Of a stretch of 64,000 bases of DNA, positions 13,860-46,700 are shown piece by piece. Numbering within the stretch: position 1 is the first letter of the stretch; each line of letters starts with the position of its first letter. Below the pieces are notes generated by a model. It worked only from the letters and a program-made list of their open reading frames with translations. It was not told the DNA's origin and made no database searches. The stretch comes from Octopus vulgaris (Eukaryota), in NCBI GenBank assembly GCA_951406725.2, contig OX597831.1:20212001-20276000 (forward strand). Direction: 5' to 3'. Both the position numbers and the translations under genes were made by a program.

Positions 13860-14399
<540 letters not shown>

Positions 14400-22359: not shown

Positions 22360-22587
22360 ATATATATGGATTTCGTAGACAGGAACTGTAACAAATAAAT
22401 CGTATATATATGTATGTATATATGTAAGTGTATGTGTGTGTCTTTGTCTCTGTGTTTCGCCCTCATCACTGCTTCACAACTGCTGTTCACTTATTTACAT
22501 CCACATAACTTACTGGTTTCACAAGAACAAACTAATAGAGTAAGTACTAGGCTTATCAACATAAAAAAGCACTAGGCTGTGTCTCAT
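22360..22587 (+). mobile_element. SINE 3' part (second tandem copy), target of the RTE insertion
   Basis: Similar to 19362-19578; its first 78 bp are duplicated at 19579-19656. Confidence 0.7.
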
Positions 22588-22640
22588 ATTTTTGTTTGCC
22601 CACTCAGTTGTATCTATCAATTTATCTTTGTGTGTGTGTA

Positions 22641-22642
<2 letters not shown>

Positions 22643-22684
<42 letters not shown>
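22643..22684. repeat. (TA)n microsatellite
   Basis: Direct read. Confidence 0.95.
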
Positions 22685-22685
<1 letters not shown>

Positions 22686-23379: not shown

Positions 23380-23518
23380 CAGTTTCCGTCTACCAAATTC
23401 ACTCACAAGGCTTTGGTTGGCCTGAGGCTCTAGGAGAAGACCAAGGCGTCACGCAATGGGGCTGAACCCAGAACCATGTGGTTGGTAAGCAGGCTACTTA
23501 CCACACGGCCACTCATGC
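23380..23518 (-). mobile_element. tRNA-derived SINE, head and body
   Basis: Minus strand GAGTGGCCGTGTGGTAAGTAGCCTGCTTACCAACCACATGGTTCTGGGTTCAGCCCC contains A-box-like and B-box-like motifs. Confidence 0.8.
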
Positions 23519-23528
23519 ATATGTATGG

Positions 23529-23577
<49 letters not shown>

Positions 23578-23674
23578 TGTGTGTCTGTGTGTAGTTTGAC
23601 AAGTGTCAATACACGAAACTCTCGCCCCTCGAGTCACTCTGTTGCTTCTGCTAAATATTGATAAAGACATATAT

Positions 23675-23811
23675 GACGAGCTTTTTCAGATTCTGTCAAC
23701 CAAATCTACTCACAAGGGTTTAGTCGACCCAGGGCTATAGTAGAAACACCCGCTCAAAGTGCCACGCAGCTGGACTGAACCCGGAACGGCTTACAACACA
23801 GTCACGCCTGC
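23675..23811 (-). mobile_element. Degenerate SINE of the same family with a deletion in the head
   Basis: Minus strand GCAGGCGTGACTGTGTTGTAAG..TTCCGGGTTCAGTCCA..TCTACTATAGCCCTGGG. Confidence 0.7.
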
Positions 23812-23839
23812 TTCTATTCACATATATACATGGTATATA

Positions 23840-24068
23840 TTTCTTTTGCTACCCACAAGGGGCTAAACATAGAGGGGACAAACAAGGACGGACAAACGGA
23901 TTAAGTCGATTACATCGACCCAGTGCGAAACTGGTACTTTATTTATCGACGCCGAGAGGATGAAAGGCAAAGTCGACCTCGGCGGAATTTGAACTCAGAA
24001 CGTAGCGGCAGACGAAATACTGCTAAGCATTTCGCCCGGCGTGCTAACGTTTCTGCCAGCTCGCCGCC
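23840..24068 (-). mobile_element. Apparently full-length second tRNA-derived SINE family
   Basis: Minus strand GGCGGCGAGCTGGCAGAAACG (A-box-like) ... GAGTTCAAATTCC (B box) ... AAAAGAAATA tail; CpG-rich, so probably young. Confidence 0.82.
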
Positions 24069-24634
24069 TCTTGCATATAAATCTATGTGCGTATATAGAC
24101 ACAGTTATACATACACATACCTAGTCATGGATGGCTACACACACTAACACACACGTACACATACACATGCAAGTAGTCACACGAGTGTACACACAACCAC
24201 ACACATACGCACGCACACACACACACACACATACACACTCGCACGCACGGACATAATCTCCTTTCCTCTCACCCTTATTCTTCTAAGCAAACACACATCT
24301 ACACACACATAGAAAGGCATGCATGCACGCAGACATAAGATTAATTCGCGGCCAAATTCAGGGCAGACGTTGAAGAGAAAGGACAAGCTATTGAAAAGGT
24401 CGCGAAAAATAGCGATGAACGGACTTTCACGAAGAAATAAATCTTTGATTGTTTAACCAGCACGTTAAACAAATGATTGATTACGAAGTTGGTCAGATGT
24501 GTAACCATATCGTTATTGGCACAATGACCCTCCCAAGAAGCAGCAGGATGTATGTGTGTATACGTGTGTGAGTGTGTGTGCGTATGTGTATATATGTATG
24601 TGTGTGTGTGTGTGTATATGTATGTGTGTGTGGC

Positions 24635-24752
24635 AAAATAGAATAAGTACTAGGCTTACAAAGAATAATCCCTAGAGTCGATTTGCTCGACTAAAGGCAG
24701 TGCTCCAGCATGGCGAAAGTCAAATGACTGTAACAAATAAAAGAATGAAAGA

Positions 24753-24753
<1 letters not shown>
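24635..24753 (+). mobile_element. SINE 3' tail fragment
   Basis: ATAGAATAAGTACTAGGCTTACAAAGAATAA..GTCGATTTGCTCGACTAAAGGCAGTGCTCCAGCATGG; homologous to half of the 152-bp unit. Confidence 0.75.
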
Positions 24754-24833
<80 letters not shown>

Positions 24834-25229
24834 CTAGCAGTGTCGCCCGGCGTTGCTCGGGTTTGTAAGGGAAATAACTATATAAGCATTTTTAGAGATG
24901 TAAAGTATAATAGCCATCTCAATATGGCTAACCACAAAGGGGGGGTGTTACTGTAGCTTTTTACATTCTGAGATTTAATAATACATTTTTAGAGAGTTAC
25001 TTCCCTTATATAAACCGAGCGAAAATGCATTAAAACTGCGGAAAAAATGATGGTAAATTTTTTTTTAATCGTAAACTCATCGTAGACGTGCGCTAATACC
25101 CAGAAGGGCTCGATATGAATCACGACTATAAGATACCCGCTTTTGGTTACTCTGCACCGCAAAATGAGGGAGTAGTTAGGAATCTAAATCGTAGGAGACA
25201 GACACACAACTTCACTTTTATATATAAAG

Positions 25230-25230
<1 letters not shown>
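24834..25230 (-). mobile_element. Complete 397-bp non-autonomous Helitron
   Basis: Minus strand begins TCTTTATATATAAAAG and ends with the GC hairpin CCCGAGCAACGCCGGG followed by CTAG; sits between A and T with no TSD. Confidence 0.88.
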
Positions 25231-25261
<31 letters not shown>

Positions 25262-25368
25262 ACATATATATATACAGTATATATATATATATATATATTT
25301 GAGGGAATATTATTCATAACTTACAGGGAAAAATTCAATTTAGAAATACTAAATCAAATTTCACAAAA

Positions 25369-25656
25369 TCTATATATATAAAACAGTAGTTGTGTGAGTG
25401 TCTGTCTCCTACGATTTAGATTCCTAAATACTCCCACATTTTGCGGTGCAGTTTAACCAAAAGCGGGTATCTTGTAGTCGTGATTCATATCGAGCCCTTC
25501 TGGGTATTAGCGCGCGTCTACGATGAGTCTACGATATAAAAATAATTTAACATCATTTTTTTCCATTTTAACGCATATATTTTCGTGTGACGATGGCGGC
25601 GGAGTTGGCGTCCATGGTCACACCTGCACCTATGTTGCTTCTCCCCCTTCTTCCCA
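25369..25656 (+). mobile_element. 5' part of a related Helitron, running into the 22-bp satellite
   Basis: A/TCTATATATATAAAA start; about 190 bp are a diverged inverted copy of about 25045-25230; no 3' CTAG end found. Confidence 0.8.
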
Positions 25657-25769
25657 CACGTTCGCGCATGCGCAGTCACACGTTCGCGCATGCGCAGTCA
25701 AACTTTAGCGCATGCGCAGTCTTACTTTGGCGCATGCACAGTCACACGTTCGCGCATGCGCAGTCACAC
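25657..25769 (+). repeat. 22-bp GCGCATGCGC satellite, block 1 (about 5 copies)
   Basis: Unit TCACACGTTCGCGCATGCGCAG. Confidence 0.95.
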
Positions 25770-25770
25770 A

Positions 25771-25903
25771 AGAGAGTATATACAGGCACAGGAATGGCTG
25801 TGTGGAACCACATGATTCCGGGTTCAGTACTGGGCTTACAAAAGAATAAGTCCTGGAGTCGAGTTGCTCGATTAAAGGCGGTGCTGCAGCATGGCCGCAG
25901 TGA
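25771..25903 (+). repeat. Single inverted copy of the 152-bp mini-SINE unit
   Basis: Reverse complement of the unit arrayed at 29019-30033. Confidence 0.93.
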
Positions 25904-26569
25904 TTAGACACAAATGAAGTAATATCTATAAAATTTCATCTTACAAAGTTAGAAAGACCCCTCCATGGGGACTTAACATCTACAATTTTGTCATTTTATC
26001 TAAGCAAAAATGAATACAGTTGTGCTCTTGGAAGCTGTAGGGTTACCCGAGCATAAAAGATGAGCATTATTTGTAATTCAATGGTACAACAGTGTAACAG
26101 TTTGTTTTGACATACACTTACATTGTGATTTCTGCAATGTGCTGCATAAATTGTCAAGTAAATGAGAGGCATCTTTGCCTCCACTGATTCAGTTGCAAAG
26201 TGTAGAGTAAAATTTATTTGATTGCAGACCTCCTTTCAGTCTTTTTATTATCACTCGGTCACACATAGTCCCCAGATGGTAACATTGATTTCAAGGCTTT
26301 CCCAGATGAGTGACTGGTTATTCGAAGACATTTATAGATTTTAAATTTATTCTGTCCAGTTACGTATCAGTATTATGTATATACATGCCACCATCGGGGG
26401 GACAAACACAAACACACACACAGTTTCCGTCTACCAAATTCACTCACAAGGCTTTGGTTGGCCTGAGGCTCTAGGAGAAGACCAAGGCGTCACGCAATGA
26501 GGCTGAACCCAGAACCATGTGGTTGGTAAGCAGGCTACTTACCACACGGCCACTCATGCATATGTATGG

Positions 26570-26608
<39 letters not shown>

Positions 26609-27783
26609 TGTGTGTCTGTGTGTAGTTTGACAAGTGTCAATACACGAAACTCTCGCCCCTCGAGTCACTCTGTTGCTTCTGCTAAATATTGATAAAGACA
26701 TATATGACGAGCTTTTTCAGATTCTGTCAACCAAATCTACTCACAAGGGTTTAGTCGACCCAGGGCTATAGTAGAAACACCCGCTCAAAGTGCCACGCAG
26801 CTGGACTGAACCCGGAACGGCTTACAACACAGTCACGCCTGCTTCTATTCACATATATACATGGTATATATTTCTTTTGCTACCCACAAGGGGCTAAACA
26901 TAGAGGGGACAAACAAGGACGGACAAACGGATTAAGTCGATTACATCGACCCAGTGCGAAACTGGTACTTTATTTATCGACGCCGAGAGGATGAAAGGCA
27001 AAGTCGACCTCGGCGGAATTTGAACTCAGAACGTAGCGGCAGACGAAATACTGCTAAGCATTTCGCCCGGCGTGCTAACGTTTCTGCCAGCTCGCCGCCT
27101 CTTGCATATAAATCTATGTGCGTATATAGACACAGTTATACATACACATACCTAGTCATGGATGGCTACACACACTAACACACACGTACACATACACATG
27201 CAAGTAGTCACACGAGTGTACACACAACCACACACATACGCACGCACACACACACACACACATACACACTCGCACGCACGGACATAATCTCCTTTCCTCT
27301 CACCCTTATTCTTCTAAGCAAACACACATCTACACACACATAGAAAGGCATGCATGCACGCAGACATAAGATTAATTCGCGGCCAAATTCAGGGCAGACG
27401 TTGAAGAGAAAGGACAAGCTATTGAAAAGGTCGCGAAAAATAGCGATGAACGGACTTTCACGAAGAAATAAATCTTTGATTGTTTAACCAGCACGTTAAA
27501 CAAATGATTGATTACGAAGTTGGTCAGATGTGTAACCATATCGTTATTGGCACAATGACCCTCCCAAGAAGCAGCAGGATGTATGTGTGTATACGTGTGT
27601 GAGTGTGTGTGCGTATGTGTATATATGTATGTGTGTGTGTGTGTGTATATGTATGTGTGTGTGGCAAAATAGAATAAGTACTAGGCTTACAAAGAATAAT
27701 CCCTAGAGTCGATTTGCTCGACTAAAGGCAGTGCTCCAGCATGGCGAAAGTCAAATGACTGTAACAAATAAAAGAATGAAAGA

Positions 27784-27868
<85 letters not shown>

Positions 27869-28224
27869 ATACTAGCAGTGTCGCCCGGCGTTGCTCGGGT
27901 TTGTAAGGGAAATAACTATATAAGCATTTTTAGAGATGTAAAGTATAATAGCCATCTCAATATGGCTACCCACAAAGGGGGGGGGTGTTACTGTAGCTTT
28001 TTACATTCTGAGATTTAATAATACATTTTTAGAGAGTTACTTCCCTTATATAAACCGAGCGAAAATGCATTAAAACTGCGGAAAAAATGATGGTAAATTT
28101 TTTTTTTTAATCGTAAACTCATCGTAGACGTGCGCTAATACCCAGAAGGGCTCGATATGAATCACGACTATAAGATACCCGCTTTTGGTTACTCTGCACC
28201 GCAAAATGAGGGAGTAGTTAGGAA
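25903..28224 (+). repeat. 2.3-kb duplication, copy 2 (contains copies of the SINEs at about 26421-26559, 26706-26842, 26871-27099 and 27666-27784)
   Basis: Differs from copy 1 mainly in microsatellite/homopolymer lengths and a few substitutions. Confidence 0.97.
27872..28224 (-). mobile_element. Duplicated Helitron copy, 5' end removed by the duplication breakpoint
   Basis: Near-identical to 24834-25182. Confidence 0.85.
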
Positions 28225-28234
28225 CAGGCACAGA

Positions 28235-28942
28235 CTGCGCACTCACACTTTCGCGCATGCGCAGTCACACGTTCGCGCATGCGCAGTCACACGTTAACGC
28301 ATGCGCAGTCGCACTTTCGCGCATTCGCACTTACACTTCCACGCATGTGCAGTCACACGTTCGCGCATGCGCATGCGCACCTTCGCGCATGCGCACTCAC
28401 ACTTCCGCGCATGCGCAATCACACGTTCGCGCATGCGCAGTAACACTTTCGCGCATGCGCACTCACACTTTCGCGCATGCGCAGTCACACGTTAACGCAT
28501 GCGCAGTCGCACTTTCGCGCATGCGCACTTACACTTCCGCGCATGCGCAGTCACACGTTCGCGCATGCGCAGTCGCACCTTCGCGCATGCGCACTCACAC
28601 TTCCGCGCATGCGCAGTCACACGTTGACGCATGCGCAGTCACACTTTCGCGCATGCGCAGTTACACTTTCGCGCATGCGCACTCACACTCTCGCGCATGC
28701 GCATTCACACTTTCGCGCATGCGCAGTCACACTTTCGCGCATGCGCACTCACACTTTCGCGCATGCGCATTCACACTTTAGCGCATGCGCAGTCGCACTT
28801 TCGCGCATGCGCACTGACACATCCGTGCATGCGCAGTCACACGTTCGCGCATGCGCACTAACATTTTCGCGCATGCGCATTCACACTTTCGCGCAGGCGC
28901 AGTCACACGTTAACGCATGCGCAGTCACACTTTCGCGCGTGC
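28235..28942 (+). repeat. 22-bp GCGCATGCGC satellite, main block (about 32 copies)
   Basis: Palindromic core nearly invariant while the spacers vary (AGTCACACGTTC, ACTCACACTTTC, ATTCACACTTTA and others). Confidence 0.97.
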
Positions 28943-29018
28943 ATGGCACCTTGGGCCGACCAAAGCCTTGTGAGTTGATTTGGTAGACGGAAACTGAAAG
29001 AAGACCATCGTATATATA
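28943..29018 (+). mobile_element. SINE body fragment
   Basis: GGCACCTTGGG|CCGACCAAAGCCTTGTGAGTTGATTTGGTAGACGGAAACTGAAAG. Confidence 0.75.
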
Positions 29019-30033
29019 TTCTTTTGTAAGCCCAGTACTGAACCCGGAATCATGTGGTTCCACACAGCCATTCCTGTGCCTGTATATACTCTCTTTACTC
29101 TGTTTCAGTCATTTCACTGCGGCCATGCTGCAGCACCGCCTTTAATCGAGCAACTCGACTCCAGGACTTATTCTTTTGTAAGCCCAGTACTGAACCCGGA
29201 ATCATGTGGTTCCACACAGCCATTCCTGTGCCTGTATATACTCTCTTTACTCTGTTTCAGTCATTTCACTGCGGCCATGCTGGAGCACCTTCTTTAATCG
29301 AGCAACTCGACTCCAGGACTTATTCTTTTGTAAGCCCAGTACTGAACCCGGAATCATGTTGTTCCACACAGCAAATCCTGTGCCTGTATATACTCTCTTT
29401 ACTCTGTTTCAGTCATTTCACTGCGGCCATGCTGGAGCACCGCCTTTAATCGAGCAACTCGACTCCAGGACTTATTCTTTTGTAAGCCCAGTACTGAACC
29501 CGGAATCATGTGGTTCCACACAGCCATTCCTGTGCCTGTATATACTCTCTTTACTCTGTTTCAGTCATTTCACTGCGGCCATGCTGCAGCACCGCCTTTA
29601 ATCGAGCAACTCGACTCCAGGACTTATTCTTTTGTAAGCCCAGTACTGAACCCGGAATCATGTGGTTCCACACAGCCATTCCTGTGCCTGTATATACTCT
29701 CTTTACTCTGTTTCAGTCATTTCACTGCGGCCATGCTGGAGCACCGCCTTTAATCGAGCAACTCGACTCCAGGACTTATTATTTTGTAAGCCCAGTACTG
29801 AACCCGGAATCATGTGGTTCCACACAGCCATTCCTGTGCCTGTATATACTCTCTTTACTCTGTTTCAGTCATTTCACTGCGGCCATGCTGCAGCACCGCC
29901 TTTAATCGAGCAACTCGACTCCAGGACTTATTCTTTTGTAAGCCCAGTACTGAACCCGAATCATGTGGTTCCACACAGCCATTCCTGTGCCTGTATATAC
30001 TCTCTTTACTCTGTTTTAGTCATTTCACTGCGG
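29019..30033 (-). repeat. 152-bp tandem array (about 6.7 copies) of an internally deleted SINE
   Basis: Units start at about 29019, 29171, 29323, 29475, 29627, 29779 and 29931; the minus strand reads as a SINE head fused to a SINE tail. Confidence 0.95.
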
Positions 30034-30035
30034 TC

Positions 30036-30198
30036 ATGCGCTCTCGCGCATGCGCATTCACACGTTCGCGCATGCGCAGTCACACCTTCGCGCATGCGCA
30101 TTCACACTTTCGCGCATGCGCATTCACACTTTAGCTTATTCGCAGTCGCACTTTCGCGCATGCGCACTCACACTTCCGCGCATGCGCAGTCACACGTT
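30036..30198 (+). repeat. 22-bp GCGCATGCGC satellite, block 3 (about 7 copies)
   Basis: Direct read. Confidence 0.95.
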
Positions 30199-30279
30199 CT
30201 ATTTATTTATTTATTTATATTTTTTATTTATAGATTCTATTTATAGATTCTATTTATAGATTCTATTTATAGGTTCTTT

Positions 30280-30326
<47 letters not shown>

Positions 30327-33300
30327 TAGATTCTATTTGTAGATTCTATTTATAGATACTATTTATAGATTATATTTATAGATTCTATTTATAGATTCTA
30401 TTTATAGATTATATTTATAGATTATATTTATAGATTCTATTTATAGATTCTATTTATAGATTTTATTTATAGATTCTATTAATAGATTCTATTTATAGAT
30501 ATTATTTATTTATTTTTTAATTTATTTATAGCTTCTATTTATAGCTTCTATTTATAGCTTCTATTTATAGCTTCTATTTATAGCTCCTATTTAGTAGCTA
30601 CTAATTATAGATTCTATTTATAGATTCTATTTATAGATTCTATTTATAGATTCTCTTTATTTATTTATTTATTTATTTATTTATACATTCTATTTATAGA
30701 TTTTATTTATAGATTCTATTTATAGATTCTATTTGTAGATTCTATTTATAGATTCAATTTATTTATTTATTTATTTATATATTTATTTATTTATTTATAG
30801 ATTCTATTTGTAGATTCTATTTATTGATTCTATTTATAGATACTATTTATAGATTCTATTTATAGATTCTATTTATAGATTTTATTTATAGATTCTCTTT
30901 ATAGATTCTATTTTTAGATTCTATTTATAGATACTATTTATTTATTAATTTATTTATAGCTTCTATATATAGCTTCTATTTATAGCTTCTATTTTATTGC
31001 TACTAATAATAGATTCTATTTATAGAGTCTATGTATAGATTCTATGTATAGATTCTATGTATAGATTCTATTTATGCATATAGAATATAACTATTTTTAG
31101 TTGCTGTTCTATTTTTACTTTATTTGTCCTATTTTTAGTTGCTGTTCTATTTTAAGTTCATTTGTTCTATTTTTAGTTTATTTGTTCTATTTTTAGTTTA
31201 TTTGTCCTATTTTAGTTGCTGTTCTATTTTTAGTTTATTTGTTCTATTTTTAGTTTATTTGTACTATCTTTAGTTGCTGTTCTATTTTAGTTTATTTGTT
31301 CTATTTTTAGTTTATTTGTCCTAGCTTTAGTTTATTTTTTCTATTTTTAGTTTACTTGTTCAATTTTTAGTTTATTTGTCCTATTTTTAGATGCTGTTCT
31401 ATATTTAGTTTATTTGTCCTATTTTTAGTTTATTTGTTCTATTTTTAGTTTATTTGCTCTATTTTTACATTATTTGTCCTATTTTAGTTGCTGTTCTATT
31501 TTTAGTTTATTTGTTCTATTTTTAGTTTATCTGTTCTATTTTTAGTTTATTTGTCCTATTTTTAGTTTATTTGTTCTATTTTTAGTTAATTTGTTCTATT
31601 TTTAGTTTATTTGTCCTATTTTTAGTTGCTGTTCTATTTTTAGTTTATTTGTCCTATTTTTAGTTTATTTGTCCTATTTTTAGTTCATTTTCTCTATTTT
31701 AAGTTTACTTGTTCTATTTTTAGTTTATTTGTCCTATTTTTAGTTGCTGTTCTAATTTTAGTTTGTTTGTCCTATTTTTAGTTGCTGTTCTATTTTTAGT
31801 TTATTTGTTCTATTTTTAGTTTATTTGTTCTATTTTTAGTTTATTTGTCCTATTTTAGTTGCTGTTCTATTTTTAGTTTATTTGTTCTATTTTTAGATTA
31901 TATGTTCTATTTTTAGTTTATTTGTCCTATTTTTAGTTTATTTGTTCTATTTTTAGTTTATTTGTTCTATTTTTAGTTTATTTGTCCTATTTTTAGTTGC
32001 TGTTCTATTTTTAGTTTATTTGACCTATTTTTAGTTTATTTGTTCAATTTTTAGTTTAATTGTTCTATTTTTAGTTTATTTGTCCTATTTAAAGTTGCTG
32101 TTCTATTTCTAGTTTATTTGTCCTATTTTTAGATTATTTTTCCTATTTTTAGTGTATTTGTTCTATTTTTAGTTTATTTGTTCTATTTATTTATTTTATT
32201 CATAGATTCTATTTATAGATACTATTTATAGATTCTATTTAAAGATACTTTTTATTTATATATTTATTTATTTATTTATTTATAGATTCTATTTGTAGAT
32301 TCTATTTATAGATACTATTTATAGATTATATTTATAGATTCTCTTCATAGATTCTATTTATAGATTTTATTTATAGATTCTATTTATAGATACTATTTAT
32401 TTATTTATTTATTTATTTATAGCTTCTATTTATAGCTTCTATTTATAGCTTCTATTTAATAGCTACTAATTATAGATTCTATTTATAAATTCTATTTATA
32501 GATACTATTTATAGATTCTATTTATAGATTCTATTTATAGATTCTATTTATAGATTCTATGTATAGATACTATTTATAGATTCTATTTATGCATATAGAA
32601 TATAACTATTTTTAGTTGCTGTTCTATTTTTAGTTTATTTGTCCTATTTTTAGTTGCTGTTCTATTTTTAGTTTATTTGTCCTATTTTTAGTTTATTTGT
32701 TCAATTTTTAGTTTCTTTGTTCTATTTTTAGTTTATTTGTCCTATTTTTAGTTGCCGTTCTATTCTTAGTTTATTTGTTCTATTTTTAGTTTATTTGTTC
32801 TCTTTTTAGTTTATTTGTTCTATTTTTTGTTTATTTGTCCTATTTTTAGTTGCTGTTCTATTTTTAGTTTATTTGTTCTATTTTTGGTTTATTTGTCCTA
32901 TTTTTAGTTTATTTTTTCTATTTTTAGTTTACTTGTTCTATTTTTAGTTTATTTGTTCTATTTTTAGTTTATCTGTTCTATTTTTAGTTTATTTGTCCTA
33001 TTTTTAGTTTTTTTTCAGTTTACTTGTTCTATTTTTAGTTTATTTGTCCTATTTTTATTTGCTGTTCTAATTTTAGTTTATTTGTCCTATTTTTAGTTGT
33101 TGTTCTATTTCTAGTTTATTTGTTCTATTTTTAGTTTATTTGTTCTATTTTTAGTTTATTTGTCCTATTTTAGTTGCTGTTCTATTTTTAGTTTATTTGT
33201 TCTATCTTTAGTTTATCTGTTCTATTTTTAGTTTATTTGTCCTATTTTTAGGTTATTTGTTCTATTTTTAGTTTATTTGTTCTATTTTTAGTTTATTTGT

Positions 33301-33876
33301 CCTATTTTTAGTTGCTCTTCTATTTTTAGTTTATTTGTTCTATTTTTACTTAATTTGTCCTATTTTTAGTTTATTTTTTCTATTTTTAGTTTACTTGTTC
33401 TATTTTTAGTTTATTTGTCCCATTTTTAGTTGCTGTTCTATTTTTAGTTTATTTGACCTATTTTTAGTTTATTTGTTCGATTTTAGTTTACTTGTTCTAT
33501 TTATTTTTTTGTCCTATTTTTAGTTGCTGTTCTATTTTAGATTATTTGTCCTATTTTTAGATTATTTGTCCTATTTTTAGTTTATTTGTTCAATTTTTAG
33601 TTTATTTGTTCTATTTATAGAATCTATTTATAGATTCTCTTTATTTATTATTTTTTATTTTTTATTTATTTATAGATTATATTTATAGATTCTATTTTTA
33701 GATTCTATTTATAGATACTATTTATAGATTCTATTTATAGATTCTATTTATAGATTCTATTTATAGATTCTATTTATAGATTCTAATTATAGATTCTATT
33801 TATTTATTTATTTATTTATTTTATTTATAGATTCTATTTATAGATTCTATTTATAGATTCTATTTATACATTCTTT

Positions 33877-33907
<31 letters not shown>

Positions 33908-34101
33908 TAGATTCTATTTGTAGATTCTATTTATAGATACTATTTATAGATTATATTTATAGATTCTATTTATAGATTCTATTTATAGATTATATATTTA
34001 TAGATTCTATTTATAGATTCTATTTATAGATTCTATTTATAGATTCTATTTATAGATTCTATTTATAGATTCTATTTATAGATTCTATTTATAGATTCTA
34101 T

Positions 34102-34132
<31 letters not shown>

Positions 34133-34323
34133 TAGATTCTATTTATAGATTCTATTTATAGATTCTATTTATAGATACTATTTATAGATTCTATTTATAG
34201 ATTCTATTTAAAGATGCTATTTATAGATTCTATTTATAGATTCTAATTATAGATTCTATTTATTTATTTATTTATTTATTTTATTTATAGATTCTATTTA
34301 TAGATTCTATTTATAGATTCTAT

Positions 34324-34382
<59 letters not shown>

Positions 34383-36707
34383 TAGATTCTATTTATAGAT
34401 TCTATTTATAGATTCTATTTATAGATTATATTTATAGATTCTATTTATAGATTCTATTTATAGATTCTATTTATAGATTATATTTATAGATTCTATTTAT
34501 AGATTCTATTTATAGATTTTTTATAGATTCTATTTATAGATTCTATTTATAGATATTTTAGATTCTATTTATAGATAATATTTATTTATTTATTTATTTT
34601 TTATTTATAGATTCTATTTATAGATTCTATTTATAGATTCTATTTATAGATTCTATTTATAGATTCTATTTATTTATTTATAGATTCTATTTATAGATTC
34701 TATTTATAGATTCTATTTATAGATTCTATTTATAGATTCTATTTATAGATTCTATTTATTTATTTATTTATTTATTTATTTTAGATTCTATTTATAGATT
34801 CTATTTATAGATTCTATTTATAGATTCTATTTATAGAATCTATTTATAGATTCTATTTATAGATTCTATTTATAGATTCTATTTATAGATTCTATTTATA
34901 GATTATTTTTATAGATTCTATTATAGATTCTATTTATAGATTCTATTTATTTATGTATTTATTTATTTATTTATAGATTCTATTTATAGATTCTATTTAT
35001 TTATTTAATTATTTATTTATTTATTTATAGATTTTATTTATAGATTCTATTTATAGATTATATTTATAGATTCTATTTATAGATTCTATTTATAGATTCT
35101 ATTTATAGATTCTATTTATAGATTCTATTTATAGATTCTATTTATAGATTCTATTTATAGATTTATTTATTTATTTATTTATAGATTCTATTTATAGTTC
35201 TATTTATAGATTCTATTTATAGATTCTATTTATAGATTCTATTTTAGATTCTATTTATATTCTATTTATAGATTCTATTTATAGATTCTATTTATAGATT
35301 CTATTTATAGATTCTATTTATAGATTCTATTTATAGATTCTATTTATTGATTCTATTTATAGATTCTATTTATAGATTCTATTTATAGATTCTATTTATA
35401 GATTCTATTTATAGATTCTATTTATAGATTCTATTTATAGATTCTTATTATAGATTCTATTTATAGATTCTATTTATAGATTCTATTTATAGATTCTATT
35501 TATTTATTTATTTATTTATTTATTTATTCTATTTATAGATTCTATTTATAGATTCTATTTATAGATTCTATTTATAGATTCTATTTATAGATTCTATTTA
35601 TTTATTTATTTATTTATTTATTTATAGATTCTATTTATAGATTCTATTTATAGATTCTATTTATAGATTCTATTTATAGATTCTATTTATAGATTCTATT
35701 TATATATTCTTTTTATTTATTTATTTATTTATTTATTTATAGATTCTATTTATAGATTCTATTTATAGATTATATTTATAGATTCTATTTATAGATTCTA
35801 TTTATAGATTCTATTTATAGATTCTATTTATAGATTCTATTTATAGATTCTATTTATAGATTCTATTTATAGTTCTATTTATAGATTCTATTTATTTATT
35901 TATTTATAGATTCTATTTATAGATTCTATTTATAGATTCTATTTATAGATTCTATTTGTAGATTCTATTTATAGATTCTATTTATTTTTTATATTTATTT
36001 ATATATTTATTTATAGATTATTTATAGATTCTATTTGTAGATTCTATTTATAGATTCTATTTATAGATTCTATTTATAGATTCTATTTATAGATTTATTT
36101 ATTTATTTATTTATTTATAGATTCTATTTATAGATTCTATTTATAGATTCTATTTATAGATTCTATTTATAGATTCTATTTATAGATTCTATTTATAGAT
36201 TATAATTTATAGATATTTTTATTTATTTATTTATAGATTCTATTTATAGATTCTATTTATAGATTCTATTTATAGATTCTATTTATAGATTCTATTTATA
36301 GATTCTATTTATAGATTTTATTTATTTTTATTCTATTTATAGATTCTATTTATTTATTTATTTATTTATTTATAGATTCTATTTATAGATTCTATTTATA
36401 GATTCTATTTATATAGATACTTTTTATTTATAGATTCTATTTATAGATTCTATTTATAGATTCTATTTATAGATTCTATTTATAGATTCTATTTATAGAT
36501 TCTATTTATAGATTCTATTTATAGATTCTATTTATAGATTCTATTTATATTCTATTTATAGATTGCTATTTATTTATTTATTTATTTATTTATAGATTCT
36601 ATTTATAGATTCTATTTATAGATTCTATTTATAGATTCTATTTATAGATTCTATTTATATATTCTATATATAGATTACTATTTATAGATTCTATTTATAG
36701 ATTCTAT

Positions 36708-36758
<51 letters not shown>

Positions 36759-36996
36759 TAGATTCTATTTATAGATTCTATTTATAGATTCTATTTATAG
36801 ATTCTATTTATATTATTTATTTATTTATTTATTTATAGATTCTATTTATAGATTCTATTTATAGATTCTATTTATAGATTCTATTTATTTATTTATTTAT
36901 TTATATTATATAGATTCTATTTATAGATTTGTTATAGATTCTATTTATAGATTCTATTTATAGATTCTATTTATAGATTCTATTTATAGATTCTAT

Positions 36997-37027
<31 letters not shown>

Positions 37028-37231
37028 TAGATTCTATTTATAGATTCTATTTATAGATTCTATTTATAGATTCTATTTATAGATTCTATTTATAGATTCT
37101 ATTTATAGATTCTATTTATAGATTCTATTTATAGATTCTATTTATAGATTCTATTTATTTATTTATTTATTTATTTTATTTATAGATTCTATTTATAGAT
37201 TCTATTTATAGATTCTATTTATAGATTCTAT

Positions 37232-37266
<35 letters not shown>

Positions 37267-37718
37267 TAGATTCTATTTATAGATTCTATTTATAGATTCT
37301 ATTTATAGATTATATTTATAGATTGCTATTTATAGATTCTATTTATATTTATTATATTTATAGATTCTATTTATAGATTCTATTTATAGATTCTATTTAT
37401 AGATTCTATTTATAGATTCTATTTATAGATTCTATTTATAGATTCTATTTTTAGTTGCTGTTCTATTTTATTTATTTGTCCTTATTTTATTTTTATTATT
37501 TATTTATTTGATTCTATTTATAGATTCTATTTGTTCTAGATTCTAGTTTATAGATACTATTTATAGATTCTATTTATAGATTCTATTTAAAGTGCTATTT
37601 ATAGATTCTATTTATAGATTCTATTATAGATTCTATTTATTTATTTGTTCTATTTATAGATTCTATTTATAGATTCTATTTATAGATTCTATTTATAGAT
37701 TCTATTTATAGATTCTAT

Positions 37719-37757
<39 letters not shown>

Positions 37758-40700
37758 TAGATTCTATTTATAGATTCTATTTATAGATTCTATTTATAGA
37801 TTCTATTTATAGATTCTATTTATAGATTCTATTTATAGATTCTATTTATAGATTCTATTTATAGATTCTATTTATAGATTCTATTTATAGATTCTATTTA
37901 TAGATTCTATTTATAGATTCTATTTATAGATTCTATTTATAGATTCTATTTATAGATAATATTTATTTATTTATTTATTGATTCTGTTTATAGATTCTAT
38001 TTATAGATTCTATTTATAGATTCTATTTATAGATTCTATTTATAGATTCTATTTATAGATTCTATTTATAGATTCTATTTATAGATTCTATTTATAGATT
38101 CTATTTATAGATTCTATTTATAGATTCTTTTTATTTATTTATTTATTTATTTATTTATAGATTCTATTTATAGATACTATTTTTAAATTCTATTTGTAGA
38201 TTCTATTTATAGATTCTATTCATAGATTCTATTTATAGATTCTATTTATAGATTCTATTTTAGATTCTATTTATAGATTCTATTTATAGATTCTATTTAT
38301 AGATTCTATTTATAGATTCTATTTATTTATTTATTTATAGATTCTATTTTTAGATTCTATTTATTTATTTTATTATTATTTTTTATTTATTTATAGATTC
38401 TATTTATAGATTCTATTTATAGATTCTATTTATAGATACTATTTATAGATTCTATTTATAGATTCTATTTATAGATTCTATTTATAGATTCTATTTATAG
38501 ATTCTATTTATAGATTCTATTTATTTATTTATTTATTTATTTATTTATAGATTCTATTTATAGATTCTATTTATAGATTCTATTTATAGATTCTATTTAT
38601 AGATTCTATTTTATTTATTTATTTATTTAGATTCTATTTATAGATTCTATTTATAGATTCTATTTATAGATATCTATTTATAGATTATATTTATAGATTC
38701 TATTTATAGACTTCTATTTATAGATTCTATTTATAGTATTCTATTTATAGATTCTATTTATAGATTCTATTTATAGCTCCTATTTAATAGCTACTATTAT
38801 AGATTCTATTTATAGATTCTATTTATAGATTCTATTTATAGATTATTTATAGATATATAGATTCTATTTTAGATTCTATTTATAGATTCTATTTCTATTT
38901 ACATAAGATTATATTTATTTATTTATTTATTTATATATTTATTTATTCTATTTATAGATTCTATTTGTAGATTCTATTTATTGATTATTTATAGATACTA
39001 TTTATAGATTCTATTTATAGATACTATTTATTTATTTATTTATATAGCTTCTATATAGTTCTATTTATAACTTCTATTTTATTGCTACTAATTATAGATT
39101 CTATTTATAGAGTCTATGTATAGATTCTATGTATAGATTCTAAGTATAGATTCTATTTATGCATTTATTTAACTATTTTTAGTTGCTGTTCTATTTTTAG
39201 TTTATTTGTCCTATTTTTAGTTGCTGTTCTATTTTTATTTCATTTGTTCTATTTTTAGTTTATTTGTTCTATTTTTAGTTTATTTGTCCTATTTTAGTTG
39301 CTGTTCTATTTTAGTTTATTTGTTCTATCTTTAGTTTATCTGTTCTATTTTTAGTTTATTTGTCCTATTTTAAGTTTATTTGTTCTATTTTTAGTTTATT
39401 TGTTCTATTTTTAGTTTATTTGTCCTATTTTTAGTTGCTGTTCTATTTTTAGTTTATTTGTCCTATTTTTAGTTTATTTGTTCTATTTTTAGTTTATTTG
39501 CTCTATTTTTACTTTATTTGTCCTATTTTAGTTGCTGTTCTATTTTTAGTTTATTTGTTCTATTTTTAGTTTATCTGTTCTATTTTTAGTTTATTTGTCC
39601 TATTCTTAGTTTATTAGTTCTATTTTTAGTTTATTTGTTCCATTTTTAGTTTATTTGTCCTATTTTTAGTTGCTGTTCTATTTTTAATTTATTTGTTCTA
39701 TTTTTAGTTTATTTGTCCTATTTTTAGTTTATTTTCTCTATTTTTAGTTTACTTGTTCTATTTTTAGTTTATTTGTCCTATTTTTAGTTGCTGTTCTAAT
39801 TTTAGTTTGTTTGTCCTATTTTTAGTTGCTGTTCTATTTTTAGTTTATTTGTTCTATTTTTAGTTTATTTGTTCTATTTTTAGTTTATTTGTCCTATTTT
39901 AGTTGCTGTTCTATTTTTAGTTTATTTGTTCTATTTTTTTAAATTATATGTTCTATTTTTAGTTTATTTGTCCTATTTTTAGTTTATTTGTTCTATTTTT
40001 AGTTTCTTTGTCCTATTTTTAGTTTATTTGTCCTATTTTTAGTTGCTGTTCTATTTTTAGTTTATTTGACCTATTTTTAGTTTATTTGTACAATTTTTAC
40101 TTTACTTGTTCTATTTTTAGTTTATTTGTCCAATTTTTAGTTGCTGTTCTATTTCTAGTTTATTTGTCCTATTTTTAGATTATATTTCCTATTTTTAGTG
40201 TATTTGTTCTATTTTTAGTTTATTTGTTCTATTTATTTATTTTATTCATAGATTCTATCTATAGATACTATTTATAGATTATATTTATAGATTCTCTTCA
40301 TAGATTCTATTTATAGATTTTATTTATAGATTCTATTTATAGATACTATTTATTTATTTATTTATAGCTTCTATTCATAGCTTCTATTTATAGTTTCTAT
40401 TGAATAGCTACTAATTATAGATTCTATTTATAGATTCTATTTATAAATTCTATTTATAGATACTATTTATAGATTCTATTTATAGATTCTATTTATAGAT
40501 TCAATGTATAGATACTATTTATAGATTCTATTTATGCATATAGAATATAACTATTTTTAGTTGCTGTTCTATTTATAGTTTATTTGTCCTATTTTTAGTT
40601 GCTGTTCTATTTTTTGTTTATTTGTTCTATTTTTAGTTTATTTGTTCTATTTTTAGTTTATTTGTCCTGTTTTAGTTGCTGTTCTATTTTTAGTTTATTT

Positions 40701-41382
40701 GTTCTATCTTTAGTTTATCTGTTCTATTTTTAGTTTATTTGTCCTATTTTTAGTTTATTTGTTCTATTTTTAGTTTACTTTTCCTATTTTTAGTTTATTT
40801 GTCCTAGTTTTAGTTGCTGTTCTTTTTTTAGTTTATTTGTTCTATTTTTGGTTTATTTGTCCTATTTTTAGTTTATTTTTTCTATTTTTAGTTTACTTGT
40901 TCTATTTTTAGTTTATTTGACCTATTTTTAGTTTATTTGTTCGATTTTTAGTTTACTTGTTCTATTTTTAGTTTTTTTGTCCTATTTTTAGTTGCTGTTC
41001 TATTTTAGATTATTTGTCCTATTTTTAGATTATTTGTCCTATTTTTAGTTTATTTGTTCTATTTTTAGTTTATTTGTTCTATTTATAGATTCTATTTATA
41101 GATTCTATTTATAGATTCTATTTATAGATTCTATTTATAGATTCTATTTATAGATTCTATTTTAGATTCTATTTATAGATAATATTTATTTATTTATTTA
41201 TTTATAGCTTCTATTTATAGCTTCTATATATAGCTTCTATTTATAGCTTCTATTTAATAGCTACTAATTATAGATTCTATTTATAGATTCTATTTAAAGA
41301 TTCTATTTATAGATTCTATTCATTTATTTATTTATTTATTTATTTATAGATTCTATTTATAGATTCTACTTATAGATTCTAT

Positions 41383-41421
<39 letters not shown>

Positions 41422-43614
41422 TAGATTCTATTTATAGATTCTATTTATAGATACTATAATAGAAAAAATAAAAAATAAACTAAAAATAGGACAAATAATC
41501 TGTAAATAGAACAGCAACTAAAAATAGGAGAAATAAACTAAAATAGAACAGCAACTAAAAACTACTATTTATAGCTTCTATTTAATAGCTACTAATTATA
41601 GATTCTATTTATAGATTCTACTTTTAGTTTATTTGTCCTATTTTATTTGCAGTTCTATTTTTAGTTTATTTGTCCTATTTTTAGTTTATAGCTCCAATTT
41701 ATAGCTTCTATTTAATAGCTACTAATTATAGATTCTATTTATAGATTCTATTTTTAGTTTATTTGTCCTATTTTAGTTGCAGTTCTATTTTTTGTTTATT
41801 TGTCCTATTTTTAGTTTATAGCTCCTATTTATAGCTTCTATTTAATAGCTACTAATTATCGATTCTATTTATAGATTCTATTTATAGATTCTATATATAG
41901 ATTCTATTTATTTATATATTTATTTATTTATATATTCTATTTATAGATTCTATTTATGGATTCTATTTATAGATACTATTTATAGATTCTATTTATAGAT
42001 TCTATTTATAGATTCTATTTATAGATTCTATTTATAGATACTATTTATTTATTTTTTTATCTATCTATTTATTTATTCATAGCTTCTATTTATAGCTTCT
42101 ATTTTTAGCTTCTATTTAATAGCTACTAATTATAGATTCTATTTATAGATTCTATTTATAGAATCTTTTTTAGATTCTATATATAGATAATATTTATTTA
42201 TTTATTTATTTATTTATTCATAGCTTCTATTTATAGCTTCTATTTATAGCTTCTATTTAATACTTACTAATTATAGATTCTATTTATAGATTCTATTTAT
42301 AGATTCTATTTTAGATTCTATATATAGATAATATTTATTTATTTATTTATTTATTTATTTATAGCTTCTATTTATAGCTTCCATTTATAGATTCTATTCA
42401 TTTATTTATTTATTTCCATACTATTTATAGATTCTATTTATAGATTCTATTTATAGATTCTATTTATAGATTCTATTTATAGATTCTATTTTTAGATTCT
42501 ATTCATAGATACTATTTATTTATTTATTTATTTATTTATAGCTTCTATTTATAGCTTCTATTTATAGCTTCTATTTATAGCTTCTATTTGTAGCTTCTAT
42601 TTATAGCTTCTATTTAATAGCTACTTATTATAGATTCTATTTATAGATTCTATTTATAGATTCTATTTATTTATTTATTCATTCATTTATTTATTTATAG
42701 ATGCTATTTAAAGTTTCTATTTATAGATTCTATTTATAGATACTATTTATAGATTCTATTTATAGATTCTATTTATTTATATAGAATATAACTATTTTTA
42801 GTTGCTGTTCTATTTTTAGTTTATTTGTCCTATTTTTAGTTACTGTTCTATTTTTATTTTATTTGTTCTATTTTTAGTTTATTTGTCCTATTTTTAGTTG
42901 CTGTTCTATTTTTAGTTTATTTGTTCTATTTTTAGTTTATTGGTCCTATTTTTAGTTTATTTTTTCTATTTTCAGTTTACTTGTTCTATTTTTAGTTTAT
43001 TTGTCCTATTTTTTGTTGCTGTTCAATTTTTAGTTTATTTGTCCTATTTTCAGTTGCTGTTGTATTTTTAGTTTATTTGTTCTATTTTTAGTTTATTTGT
43101 CCTATTTTAGTTGCTGTTCTATTTTTAGTTTATTTGTCCTATTTTTAGTTTATATATTCTATTTTTAGTTTATTTGTCCTATTTTTAGTTTATTTGTTCA
43201 ATTTTTAGTTTATTTGTTCTATTTTTAGTTTATTTGTCCTATTTTTAGTTGCCGTTCTATTCTTAGTTTATTTGTTCTATTTTTAGTTTATTTGTTCTCT
43301 TTTTAGTTTATTTGTTCTATTTTTAGTTTATTTGTCCTATTTTAGTTGCATTTCTATTTTTAGTTTATTTGTCCTATTTTTAGTTTATAGCTCCTATTTA
43401 TAGCTTCTATTTAATAGCTACTAATTATCGATTCTATTTATAGATTCTATTTATAGATTCTATATAGAGATTCTATTTATTTATTTATTTATTTATTTAT
43501 ATATTCTATTTATAGCTTCTATATATAGCTTCTATTTAATAGCTACTAATTATAGATTCTATTTAAATATTCTATTTATAGATTCTATTTATAGATTCTA
43601 TTTATAGATTCTAT

Positions 43615-43649
<35 letters not shown>

Positions 43650-43702
43650 TAGATTCTATTTATAGATTCTATTTATTTATTTATTTAATTATTTATTTAT
43701 TT
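30199..43702 (+). repeat. Composite satellite: 13-mer TATAGATTCTATT (variant TATAGCTTCTATT), (TTTA)n runs and 18/20-mer blocks
   Basis: 20-mer TTTTAGTTTATTTGTYCTAT and 18-mer TTTTAGTTGCTGTTCTAT blocks at about 31090-32190, 32605-33615, 39175-40230, 40553-41083 and 42792-43390. Confidence 0.97.
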
Positions 43703-46700
43703 AAATAAATAAGTAGTATCTATAAATAGAATCTATAAATAGAATCTATAAATAAATAAATAAATAAATAAATAAATAGAATCTATAAATAGAATCTATA
43801 AAAAGAATCTATAAATAGAATCTATCAATAGAATCTATAAATAGAATCTATAAATAAAATAAATAAATAAATAAATATATTAGTATCTATAAATAGTATC
43901 TATAAATAGAATCTATAAATAGAATCTATAAATAGAATCTATAAATAGAATCTATGAATAAAATCTATAAATAGAATCTATAAATAGAAGCTATAAATAG
44001 AAGCTATAAATAGAAACTATAAATAGAAGCTATAAATAGAATCTATAAATAGAATCTATAAATAATATCTATAAAGAGAATATATAAATAGAATATATAA
44101 ATAAGTAAATAAATAAATAAATAATTAGAATCTATAAATAGAATCTACAAATAGAATCTATAAATAGAATCTATAAATAGAATCTATAAATAAATAAATA
44201 TATAAATAAATAAATAGTATCTATAAATAGAATCTATAAATAGAATCTATAAATAGAATCTATAAATAGAATCTATAAATAGAATCTATAAATAGAATCT
44301 ATAAATAAATAAATAAATAAATAGAATCTATAAATAGAATCTATAAATAGAATCTATAAATAGAATCTATAAATAGAAGCTATAAATAGAATCTATAAAT
44401 AGAATCTATAAATAGAATCTATAAATAGAATCTATAAATAGTAGCTATAAATAGAAGCTATAAATAGAAGCTATAAATAGAAGCTATAAATAGAAGCTAT
44501 AAATAGAAGCTATAAATAGGACCTATAAATATTGAACATATTTATATATATGCAAATTATGTATATATATGCAAATTATGTATATATATATGCAAATTAT
44601 GTATTTATTTTTGCAAATTATGTATATATATATGCAAATTATGTATATATATATGCAAATTATGTACATATAAATGCAAATTATGTACATATATATGCAA
44701 ATTATGTATATATATATGCAAATTATGTATATATATATGCAAATTATATATATATATGCAAATTATGTATATATATGCAAATTATGTATATATATGCAAA
44801 TTATGTATATATATTCCAATTATGTATATATATATGCCAATATATATATATATGCAAATTATGTATATATATATGCAAATTATGTATATATATAGATATG
44901 CCATTTATGTATATATATATGCAAATTGTGTATATATATATGCAAATTATGTATATATATATGCAAATTATGAATATATGCAAATTATGTATATATATAT
45001 GCAAATTATATATATATATGCAAATTACGTACACATATATGCAAATTATGTATATATATGCAAATTATGTATATATATATGCAAATTATGTATTTATTTT
45101 TGCAAATTATGTATATATATGCAAATTATGTATATATATATGCAAAGTATGTATATATATATATATATATGCAAATTATGTATATATATATGCAAATTAT
45201 GTATATATATATGAAATTATGTATATATATGCAAATTATGTATATATATGCAAATTATGTATATATATATATGCAAATTATGTATATATATATATATATA
45301 TATACAAAATATGTATATATATATGCAAATTATGTATATATATGCAAATTATGTATATATATATGCAAATTATGTATATATATATGCAAATTATGTATAT
45401 ATATATGCAAATTATATATATATATATGCAAATTATGTATATATATGCAAATTATGTATATATATGCAAATTATGTATATATATGCAAATTATGTATATA
45501 TATATGCAAATTATGTATATATATATATGCAAATTATGTATATATATGCAAATTATGTATATATATGCAAATTATGTTTATATATATGCAAATTATGTAT
45601 ATATATATGCAAATTATGTATATATATATATATAATTATATATAGTAAATTATGTATATATATATGCAAATTATGTATATATATATGCAAATTATGTATA
45701 TATATGCAAATTATGTATATATATGCAAATTATGTATATATATATATGCAAATTATGTACATAAAGATGCAAATTATGTATATATATATGCAAATTATGT
45801 ACATATATATGCAAATTATGTATATATATGCAAATTATGTATATATATGCAAATTATGTATATATATGCAAATTATGTATATATATATGCAAATTATGTA
45901 TATATAGATATATGCAAATTATGTATATATATGCAAATTATGTATATATATATGCAAATTATGTATATATATATGCAAATTATGTATATATATATGTAAT
46001 TATGTATATATATACTCAAATTATGTATATATATATATGTGAAAATTATGTATATATATATATGCAAATTATATATACATATATATGCAAATTATGTATT
46101 TATATATCCAAATTATGTATATATATATGCAAATTATGTATATATATATGCAAATCATGTATATATATATGCAAATTTGTATATATATATGCACATTATG
46201 TATATATATATGTAAAATATGTATATATATATATGCAAATTATGTATATATATATACGCAAATTATGTATATATATATGCAAATTATGTATATATATATG
46301 CAAATTATGTATATATATATGCAAATTATGTATATATATATGCAAATTATGTATATATATATGCAAATTATATAAATAGAATCTATCAATAGAATCTATA
46401 AATAGAATCTATAAATAAAATAAATAAATAAATAAATATATTAGTATCTATAAATAGAATCTATAAATAGAATCTATAAATAGAATCTATAAATAGAATC
46501 TATAAATAGAATCTATAAATAGAATCTATAAATAGTATCTATAAAGAGAATATATAAATAGAATCTATAAATAAGTAAATAAATAAATAAATAATTAGAA
46601 TCTATAAATAGAATCTATAAATAGAATCTATAAATAGAATCTATAAATAAATAAATATATAAATAAATATATAATATCTACAAATAGAATCTATAAATAG

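What the first reader, a model, noticed from the sequence alone, without database searches (positions are those of the whole stretch)
28235..28942. Satellite made of NRF1/Ewg-consensus palindromes at two-helical-turn spacing
Seen: about 44 monomers over three blocks keep GCGCATGCGC almost invariant while the 12-bp spacers vary, with a 22-bp period. Established: YGCGCAYGCGCR is the methylation-sensitive site of dimeric NRF1/Erect wing/P3A2, and alternating purine-pyrimidine tracts favour Z-DNA. A YY1-like ATGGCGGC (25593-25600) precedes block 1. Inference: a phased homotypic TF array acting as sink, promoter or barrier between the TE island and AT satellite, possibly mobilised by the Helitron. 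Conserved CpG core with variable spacer hints at constraint.
Basis: partly seen in the sequence, partly recalled or inferred. Interest (0 to 1): 0.7.

Follow-up and report, generated by a model that had tools for sequence, protein, structure and literature searches.

The report
Palindromic minisatellite carrying NRF1-type sites
A real 22-base repeat whose core matches the binding site of the transcription factor NRF1 sits in three pieces among transposon fragments and satellites; it is likely ordinary self-spreading repeat DNA, and binding or any regulatory role is untested.

Summary
The array is real: 44 monomers in three same-strand blocks (5, 32, 7), 33 of 44 with an intact GCGCATGCGC core. 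The core is better conserved than the spacer (3.6% vs 13.8% mismatched cells), but the support is modest once kinship among monomers is allowed for (P about 0.01-0.1 by test). Six of 12 spacer columns are as constant as the core, and neighbouring AT satellites are uneven too. A 22-bp period drifts 34 degrees per monomer, so the sites spiral. The YY1-like octamer fails the strict motif and lies in a transposon interior 2.6 kb from the main block. Block 1 follows the 5' half of a non-autonomous Helitron, but the three blocks have three different left and right flanks and no Helitron 3' end. Several junctions use short matches to the palindrome. Best reading: a multi-copy palindromic minisatellite stitched into a young, rearranged transposon and satellite patchwork, with NRF1 binding possible but untested. 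No genome, chromatin or methylation data were available. NRF1-site tandem repeats (human TERRA promoters) and Helitron-borne factor arrays (worm HSEs) are already known kinds.

The parts
28236..28945 (+). Block 2: main array, 32 monomers of the 22-bp unit (consensus CACACTTTCGCGCATGCGCAGT), with a loose 3-monomer higher-order pattern
   Evidence: lowest mean distance at lags 3, 6, 9, 13
25655..25769 (+). Block 1: 5 monomers, directly after the Helitron B interior
30037..30199 (+). Block 3: 7 monomers, joined to the AT-rich satellite; 6 of them resemble block 2 monomers 22-27 (9 differences in 132 bases)
25369..25654 (+). Helitron-like element B, 5' half only: A|TC start, about 208 bp shared with element A, then a B-specific interior (25577-25654) holding the ATGGCGGC word; no 3' end found
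24834..25230 (-). Element A: complete non-autonomous Helitron-like element (A|TC 5' end, 16-nt hairpin 8 nt before CTAG|T); holds no 22-mer
   Evidence: criteria from PMC4067079
27872..28224 (-). Second copy of element A, cut at its 5' end where block 2 is joined
25903..28224 (+). Young direct duplication of 22862-25182 (5 substitutions in 2332 columns, 98.9% with gaps)
29017..30039 (+). 152-bp tandem array (6.7 copies, mean 2.6 differences per unit) built from an internally deleted copy of the local SINE-like repeat
25770..25903 (-). Inverted 134-bp piece of the 152-bp unit, cutting off block 1
28946..29016 (+). Fragment of the SINE-like repeat joined to the end of block 2
30197..44531 (.). 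AT-rich 13-bp/20-bp satellite patchwork abutting block 3

Best explanation
This is a multi-copy 22-bp minisatellite with a palindromic core that matches the NRF1 site, and its three blocks were likely stitched among Helitron, SINE-like and satellite pieces by recent template-switching rearrangement, with no host function required. Shown: the array, the motif match, the different flanks of the three blocks, short matches to the palindrome at several junctions, and the young age of the flanking duplication compared with the diversity of the monomers. Predicted: neighbouring cores pair as fold-back hairpins in single-stranded DNA. Inferred: this pairing promotes strand switching and tends to correct the core while leaving the spacer free, which with chance would explain the modest core conservation. 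An NRF1 orthologue may bind the array passively if it is open and unmethylated; that is untested.
For: Three blocks, three different left flanks and three different right flanks. Junctions read: at about 28228 an inverted half-monomer is fused to block 2; at the block 2 right end and block 3 left end the neighbouring repeat shares 5-6-base words with the core; block 3 meets the AT satellite at a shared 3-base word. Flanks are young (duplication 5 substitutions in 2332 columns; 152-bp units 1.7% apart) while monomers are 84.6% alike on average, and block 3 resembles a run of block 2, so the monomer family predates the local arrangement. Contigs of runs X1 and X5 (two organism labels, two studies; X1 may be the source sample) lie on every array bin with summed depths of 26,000-73,000 and 3,700-22,000; the tool says this is no copy number, so it is used only to show that the family is real and abundant. 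Fold-back: -14.1 kcal/mol for two monomers, z=-4.5 for ten, 0 of 200 shuffles. Six other satellite tilings in the window are also uneven (best-window ratios 0.25-0.79), and the 29-bp and 13-bp satellites also flip strand. 4 of 8 core alleles are CpG-type transitions (P=0.03-0.11), a weak hint of some germline methylation.
Against: The 22-mer is the most uneven of the seven tilings (ratio 0.135), and a neutral simulation reaches the observed core share in only 3.2% of 1500 runs (0.9% with 3x CpG mutation). The best-conserved window is 11-20, one base off the palindrome (10-19): position 20 is not self-complementary yet is unchanged in 42 of 42, while position 10 varies in 5. The variant at 28896 breaks the palindrome but keeps GCGCNTGCGC, and about 99% of X1 depth at that place does not show the consensus letter, which fits NRF1 tolerance better than hairpin repair (one variant only). 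Two junctions (25770, 25903) show at most one shared base. No genome was available, so other copies and their flanks were not seen.
Confidence: 0.6

Rival explanations
1. The 22-mer is the internal repeat of a Helitron subfamily (element B), which carries NRF1 sites and a YY1-like word as its own housekeeping-type promoter module; the core is kept by selection on the element, and the blocks here are broken-off pieces.
For: Block 1 follows a Helitron 5' half in the same orientation. Summed contig depth at 25634 in the B interior is very high (577,017 in X1, 480,470 in X5), and a rough budget gives 2.35 (X1) and 0.74 (X5) monomer-equivalents per unit of B depth, so a short internal array in some copies is not excluded. 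Precedents: HINE central repeats in oyster (PMC7492417), HSE clusters in worm Helitrons (PMC6927752), NRF/YY1/ETS motifs in annelid unmethylated promoters (PMC11292947).
Against: Only 1 of 3 blocks has this flank; no hairpin-plus-CTRR on the + strand after any block; the complete element A has no 22-mer; depth at the block-1-specific variant places (25722, 25729) is about 800-1200 in X1 and 78 in X5, far below the B interior. Oyster HINEs keep consistent flank pairs (PMC7492417); these blocks do not.
Confidence: 0.2
2. One reading: a host-selected homotypic NRF1 array acting as promoter, sink or barrier at the border of the AT satellite, like the NRF1-bound 29-bp repeats of human TERRA promoters.
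For: 34 of 44 monomers fit GCGCNTGCGC; core conservation P about 0.01-0.03 in three tests; CpG observed/expected 1.75 in the array; block 3 abuts the satellite; human precedent (PMC6600276).
Against: Only the 7-monomer block touches the satellite; the arrangement is very young; no intact gene seen in 14700-30300, only transposon fragments; sites spiral by 34 degrees per monomer; no strict YY1 site; local transposon pieces keep CpG anyway (0.81-0.82 in two of three pieces); if the host is an octopus (recalled, not shown), satellites there are reported as relatively more methylated than transposons (PMC9476566).
Confidence: 0.12
3. The arrangement of blocks is partly an assembly artefact of a long-read consensus in a repeat-dense region.
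For: Near-identical 2.3-kb duplication; a noisy stretch near 13000-13070; no listed contig piece spans the array junctions.
Against: Duplication copies differ at 5 bases and 4 gaps; 28 of 44 monomers are distinct with recurring variants; the family is in contigs of X1 and X5. This could affect the mosaic, not the repeat family.
Confidence: 0.05
4. A structural element: phased Z-DNA-prone tracts at two-turn spacing.
For: Each monomer has an 11-13-bp alternating purine-pyrimidine run rich in CG.
Against: Runs are interrupted in every monomer and contain a central AT step; far longer alternations (36-61 bp) lie nearby; periods of 13, 20, 21, 22 and 29 bp all occur in this window, so 22 is not singled out.
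Confidence: 0.03

Closest known systems
Human subtelomeric 61-29-37 repeats of TERRA promoters (PMC6600276; abstract and passages read)
   Same: Tandem repeat with one NRF1 site per unit, CpG-rich, next to a long simple-repeat tract.
   Different: There binding, methylation gating and promoter activity were shown, and the site has two mismatches to the consensus; here the site is perfect but nothing functional is shown, no sequence relationship is claimed, and the neighbour is an AT satellite.
Central tandem repeats of non-autonomous rolling-circle elements: Cg_HINE of oyster (PMC7492417), DINE-1/HINE (PMC4067079)
   Same: Short satellite-like array next to a non-autonomous rolling-circle element end, in fixed orientation.
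   Different: Elements here have canonical Helitron ends (TC, hairpin, CTAG), not the Helentron layout; monomer is 22 bp, not 140-180 bp; flanks are not a consistent pair and the 3' flank is missing.
HSE clusters in Caenorhabditis Helitrons (PMC6927752; abstract and passages read)
   Same: Dense tandem copies of one transcription-factor site associated with a Helitron.
   Different: There factor and polymerase occupancy and gene induction were shown genome-wide; here the Helitron link holds for 1 of 3 blocks and occupancy is untested.
Helitron plus minisatellite tracts in Hydractinia subtelomeres (bioRxiv 10.1101/2024.11.21.624632; abstract read)
   Same: Helitron ends running into minisatellite tracts in locally amplified repeat blocks.
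   Different: About 200-bp units and chromosome-end position there; chromosomal position here is unknown.

Membership tests
Canonical non-autonomous Helitron (element A, 24834-25230) | 5' TC, 3' CTRR, 16-20-nt hairpin about 11 bp from the 3' end, insertion between A and T (PMC4067079) | tested here: met
   A|TC at 25231-25229, 16-nt hairpin (-4.5 kcal/mol) ending 12 nt from the end, CTAG|T at 24837-24833; empty site and autonomous partner not seen
Central repeat of an intact Helitron/HINE (the 22-mer array) | Element 5' end on the left flank | tested here: inconclusive
   Met for 1 of 3 blocks (block 1); not for blocks 2 and 3
Central repeat of an intact Helitron/HINE (the 22-mer array) | Element 3' end (hairpin plus CTRR, or subTIR plus stem loop) on the right flank | tested here: not met
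   Right flanks are an inverted 152-bp piece, a SINE-like fragment and an AT satellite; no + strand hairpin-CTRR after 26962 up to 44600
Central repeat of an intact Helitron/HINE (the 22-mer array) | Same flank pair at many genomic copies | not testable with these tools
NRF1-site tandem promoter (TERRA 29-bp type) | NRF1 consensus in each unit | tested here: met
   34 of 44 fit GCGCNTGCGC, 33 of 44 the preferred GCGCATGCGC (PMC10810270)
NRF1-site tandem promoter (TERRA 29-bp type) | NRF1 bound in vivo, gated by methylation | not testable with these tools
   No chromatin or methylation data; host NRF1 orthologue not examined
NRF1-site tandem promoter (TERRA 29-bp type) | Transcription start at the array edge | not testable with these tools
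   No raw RNA reads offered
Helically phased site array | Period a multiple of about 10.5 bp | tested here: not met
   22 bp drifts 34 degrees per unit, 2.95 turns over block 2; near neighbours are only roughly on one face
Minisatellite / satellite DNA family | Head-to-tail units of 10-60 bp with shared variants and higher-order pattern | tested here: met
   Period 22, 83-87% matches, 0% indels; recurring variant types and lag-3 pattern

The most novel reading that the evidence does not exclude
A Helitron-spread minisatellite of perfect NRF1 sites that is bound by the host NRF1 orthologue when unmethylated and seeds promoters or open-chromatin islands at many satellite borders: an invertebrate counterpart of the NRF1-driven TERRA repeat promoter, numerous enough to titrate the factor.
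Probability: 0.12. Interest if true: 0.65.

Novelty: new member of a known kind. Interest (0 to 1): 0.3.

Why it matters
If passive, it is one more palindromic minisatellite in a rearranging repeat block, useful mainly as an example of hairpin-prone repeats seeding junctions. If bound, an abundant array of perfect sites for a methylation-sensitive housekeeping factor would be a clean test of whether repeat expansions titrate a factor or drive satellite transcription in an invertebrate. The family itself offers a cheap test of NRF1 selection versus hairpin repair, because the two predict different free positions in the core.

Tried and rejected
Own genome: none held, so no genome-wide copy analysis. 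Family-specific and Helitron-specific DNA patterns: 0 hits in metagenome contigs, prokaryote genomes and viral contigs. General three-core 22-bp pattern: 1 viral contig, 0 prokaryote genomes. Raw-read run X22: 178 of 12.9 million records laid, 158 of them under 95% alike, uninformative for depth. Expression: no RNA holder listed; X12 is only guessed to be RNA, so its low array depth is not used. Translated-frame searches to see the flanks of other copies: no hits, one chance-level low-complexity hit. Host clade by protein search: no usable taxon; the octopus-like look of the SINE, Helitron and microsatellites is recalled and comes from no call. Rfam: 10 matches, all far below gathering scores. 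ARAGORN: 11 calls, all inside the AT satellite, taken as false. Coding role of the array's open frames rejected: they are the expected read-through of a stop-free 66-bp trimer and have no homologues. Earlier findings by place and sequence: none. Literature: no title or abstract start describing this repeat among the listings (4 of 4; 0; 5 of 5; 30 of 50; 15 of 185; 15 of 20); the one supplement of PMC13282606 has 0 occurrences of the core and lists repeat classes, not sequences. Repeat libraries (Repbase, Dfam, the authors' deposited library) could not be searched and may already hold this unit.

Full report
Observation. The 22-bp repeat is present as three blocks on the + strand: 5 monomers from 25655, 32 from 28244 and 7 from 30037, 44 in all, with no indels. 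The consensus is CACACTTTCGCGCATGCGCAGT. 33 of 44 monomers keep GCGCATGCGC in register, 31 of 44 match YGCGCAYGCGCR, and 34 of 44 match GCGCNTGCGC on one strand; none of 100 shuffles of the window gives a match. Human NRF1 prefers exactly this 10-mer (Kd 0.31 uM), and single changes in a GCGC half cost about 2- to 12-fold (PMC10810270, section 15 read).

Is the core more conserved? Mismatched cells are 16 of 440 in the core and 73 of 528 in the spacer, but cells are not independent. Tests that allow for kinship give P=0.03 (distinct alleles), 0.007 (column permutation, fixed core), 0.09 (best window), 0.06-0.11 (placement of the 7 columns with a variant in 3 or more monomers) and 0.24 (singleton versus shared alleles) on 42 monomers after dropping two junction monomers, and 0.032 or 0.009 in a neutral duplication-deletion simulation without or with 3x CpG mutation (1500 runs each). 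Six of 12 spacer columns are as constant as the core. Six tilings of the window's AT satellites are also uneven (best-window ratios 0.25-0.79), though the 22-mer is the most uneven (0.135). So the signal is real but modest, from one locus.

A 22-bp period exceeds two turns by 34 degrees, about three extra turns over block 2, and periods of 13, 20, 21 and 29 bp occur in the same window. Alternating purine-pyrimidine runs are 11-13 bp in 29 of 30 cases in block 2, against 36-61 bp in nearby microsatellites. ATGGCGGC is at 25593-25600, but the window has no match to AANATGGCG (this stricter YY1 form is recalled), and the word lies 2.6 kb from block 2. CpG retention is weak evidence: two of three local transposon stretches have CpG observed/expected 0.81-0.82, the LINE 0.49, and 4 of 8 core alleles are CpG-type transitions (P=0.03-0.11).

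Anatomy. Element A (24834-25230, minus strand) has canonical Helitron ends: A|TC, a 16-nt hairpin, CTAG|T (criteria from PMC4067079, passages read). Element B (+ strand, from 25369) shares about 208 bp of the 5' half with A, continues into a different interior (25577-25654) and then into block 1. Block 1 is cut off by an inverted 134-bp piece of a 152-bp unit, followed by a young direct copy (25903-28224) of 22862-25182, which ends in a 5'-truncated A. Block 2 follows, then a SINE-like fragment, 6.7 copies of the 152-bp unit (an internally deleted SINE-like repeat; the SINE label is recalled), block 3 and the AT satellite. No Helitron 3' end follows any block. At four junctions the sequence shows short shared words, three of them with the palindromic core or its reverse complement; two other junctions share at most one base. 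The duplication has 5 substitutions in 2332 columns and the 152-bp units differ by 1.7%, whereas monomers are 84.6% alike and six block 3 monomers match block 2 monomers 22-27 with 9 differences in 132 bases. The monomer family is therefore older than the arrangement. ORFs of 90 aa or more in 14700-30300 are mariner-like and LINE fragments or repeat read-through.

Evidence from outside the window. No genome is held. 20 of 24 listed runs from 9 studies hold part of 25300-30250, but the stretch includes very common repeats, so this says little about the array. Of 4 runs laid, X22 was uninformative and X12 is of uncertain kind. In X1 and X5 (two organism labels) contigs cover all array bins with summed depths of 26,000-73,000 and 3,700-22,000. 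The tool states that such sums are no copy number; I use them only to say that the family exists outside this assembly and is abundant. The B interior is much deeper (577,017 and 480,470 at 25634) than the block-1 variant places (about 800-1200 and 78), and a rough budget allows 2.35 (X1) or 0.74 (X5) monomers per unit of B depth. This neither proves nor excludes a B subfamily with a short internal array. At 28896, a variant that breaks the palindrome but keeps GCGCNTGCGC, about 99% of X1 depth lacks the consensus letter, while all X5 depth shows it: one point in favour of NRF1-type tolerance.

Mechanism. Most likely (0.6) a palindromic minisatellite amplified by unequal exchange, whose self-complementary cores can pair in single-stranded DNA (predicted -14.1 kcal/mol for two monomers; z=-4.5). 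By inference this favours strand switches, which explains the junction words, and templated correction of the core. The fit is imperfect: the best-conserved window is 11-20, not 10-19. Rivals: Helitron-B cargo with an NRF1/YY1-type promoter module selected on the element (0.2); host-selected promoter, sink or barrier (0.12); partial assembly artefact (0.05); Z-DNA element (0.03).

Comparison. It works like a minisatellite associated with rolling-circle elements (oyster Cg_HINE, PMC7492417, abstract and first part of the Discussion read; Hydractinia, bioRxiv 10.1101/2024.11.21.624632, abstract read), but at this locus it fails the test for the central repeat of an intact element. If functional it would parallel the NRF1-bound 29-bp repeats of human TERRA promoters (PMC6600276, abstract and passages) or HSE clusters in worm Helitrons (PMC6927752, abstract and passages). 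NRF, YY1 and ETS motifs are enriched in annelid unmethylated promoters (PMC11292947, passages), so the motif is meaningful in spiralians. The repeats look octopus-like from recall only; if so, transposons are reported as nearly unmethylated and satellites as relatively more methylated (PMC9476566, passages), and Helitrons and satellites cover 1.02% and 3.12% of the O. vulgaris assembly (PMC13282606, first third of the text, passages and supplement search). My paper searches (listings only, some partial) showed no description of this unit; repeat libraries were not searchable.

Verdict. Real array, exact motif, modest conservation signal, overstated phasing, Z-DNA and YY1 arguments, partial Helitron link, no functional evidence. 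New member of a known kind; interest 0.3.

Noticed in passing
window 12071-13840: A second GC-rich array (70-bp unit, about 25 copies, 96-97% matches) with two ATGGCG/CGCCAT words per unit (50 in the block), preceded at about 11907-12070 by a stretch only weakly resembling a Helitron 5' end, and followed by (ATTT)n, (TTGGC)n and (TTCGC)n.
   Followed up: partly
L001 1501-1576: A viral contig has four GCGCATGCGC cores at exactly 22-bp spacing with unrelated spacers, inside GC-rich coding-like sequence; it looks like a phage iteron set, and shows the same pattern arising with no NRF1.
   Followed up: partly
window 29017-30039 and 25770-25903: A young tandem array whose 152-bp unit is a SINE-like repeat with internal deletions, joined tail to head; one piece is inverted 3.2 kb upstream.
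   Followed up: yes
window 1-11663 and 30197-64000: AT satellites form interleaved patchworks (13/20-bp, 13/21-bp with GGTTCAAACC spacers at 51947, 54391, 61656); the 29-bp satellite flips strand several times and the 13-bp satellite flips near 43700. The 21-bp unit contains ATGCAAAT (POU octamer, recalled).
   Followed up: partly
window 19609-22286 and 15570-18900: A broken RTE-like LINE (reverse transcriptase frame 20701-21330) with a short flanking duplication (19579-19656 = 22360-22437), and three mariner-like fragments.
   Followed up: partly
window 28330-28620: Four monomers carry ACTTCCG, an ETS-like word (recalled), directly against the NRF1-type core.
   Followed up: no
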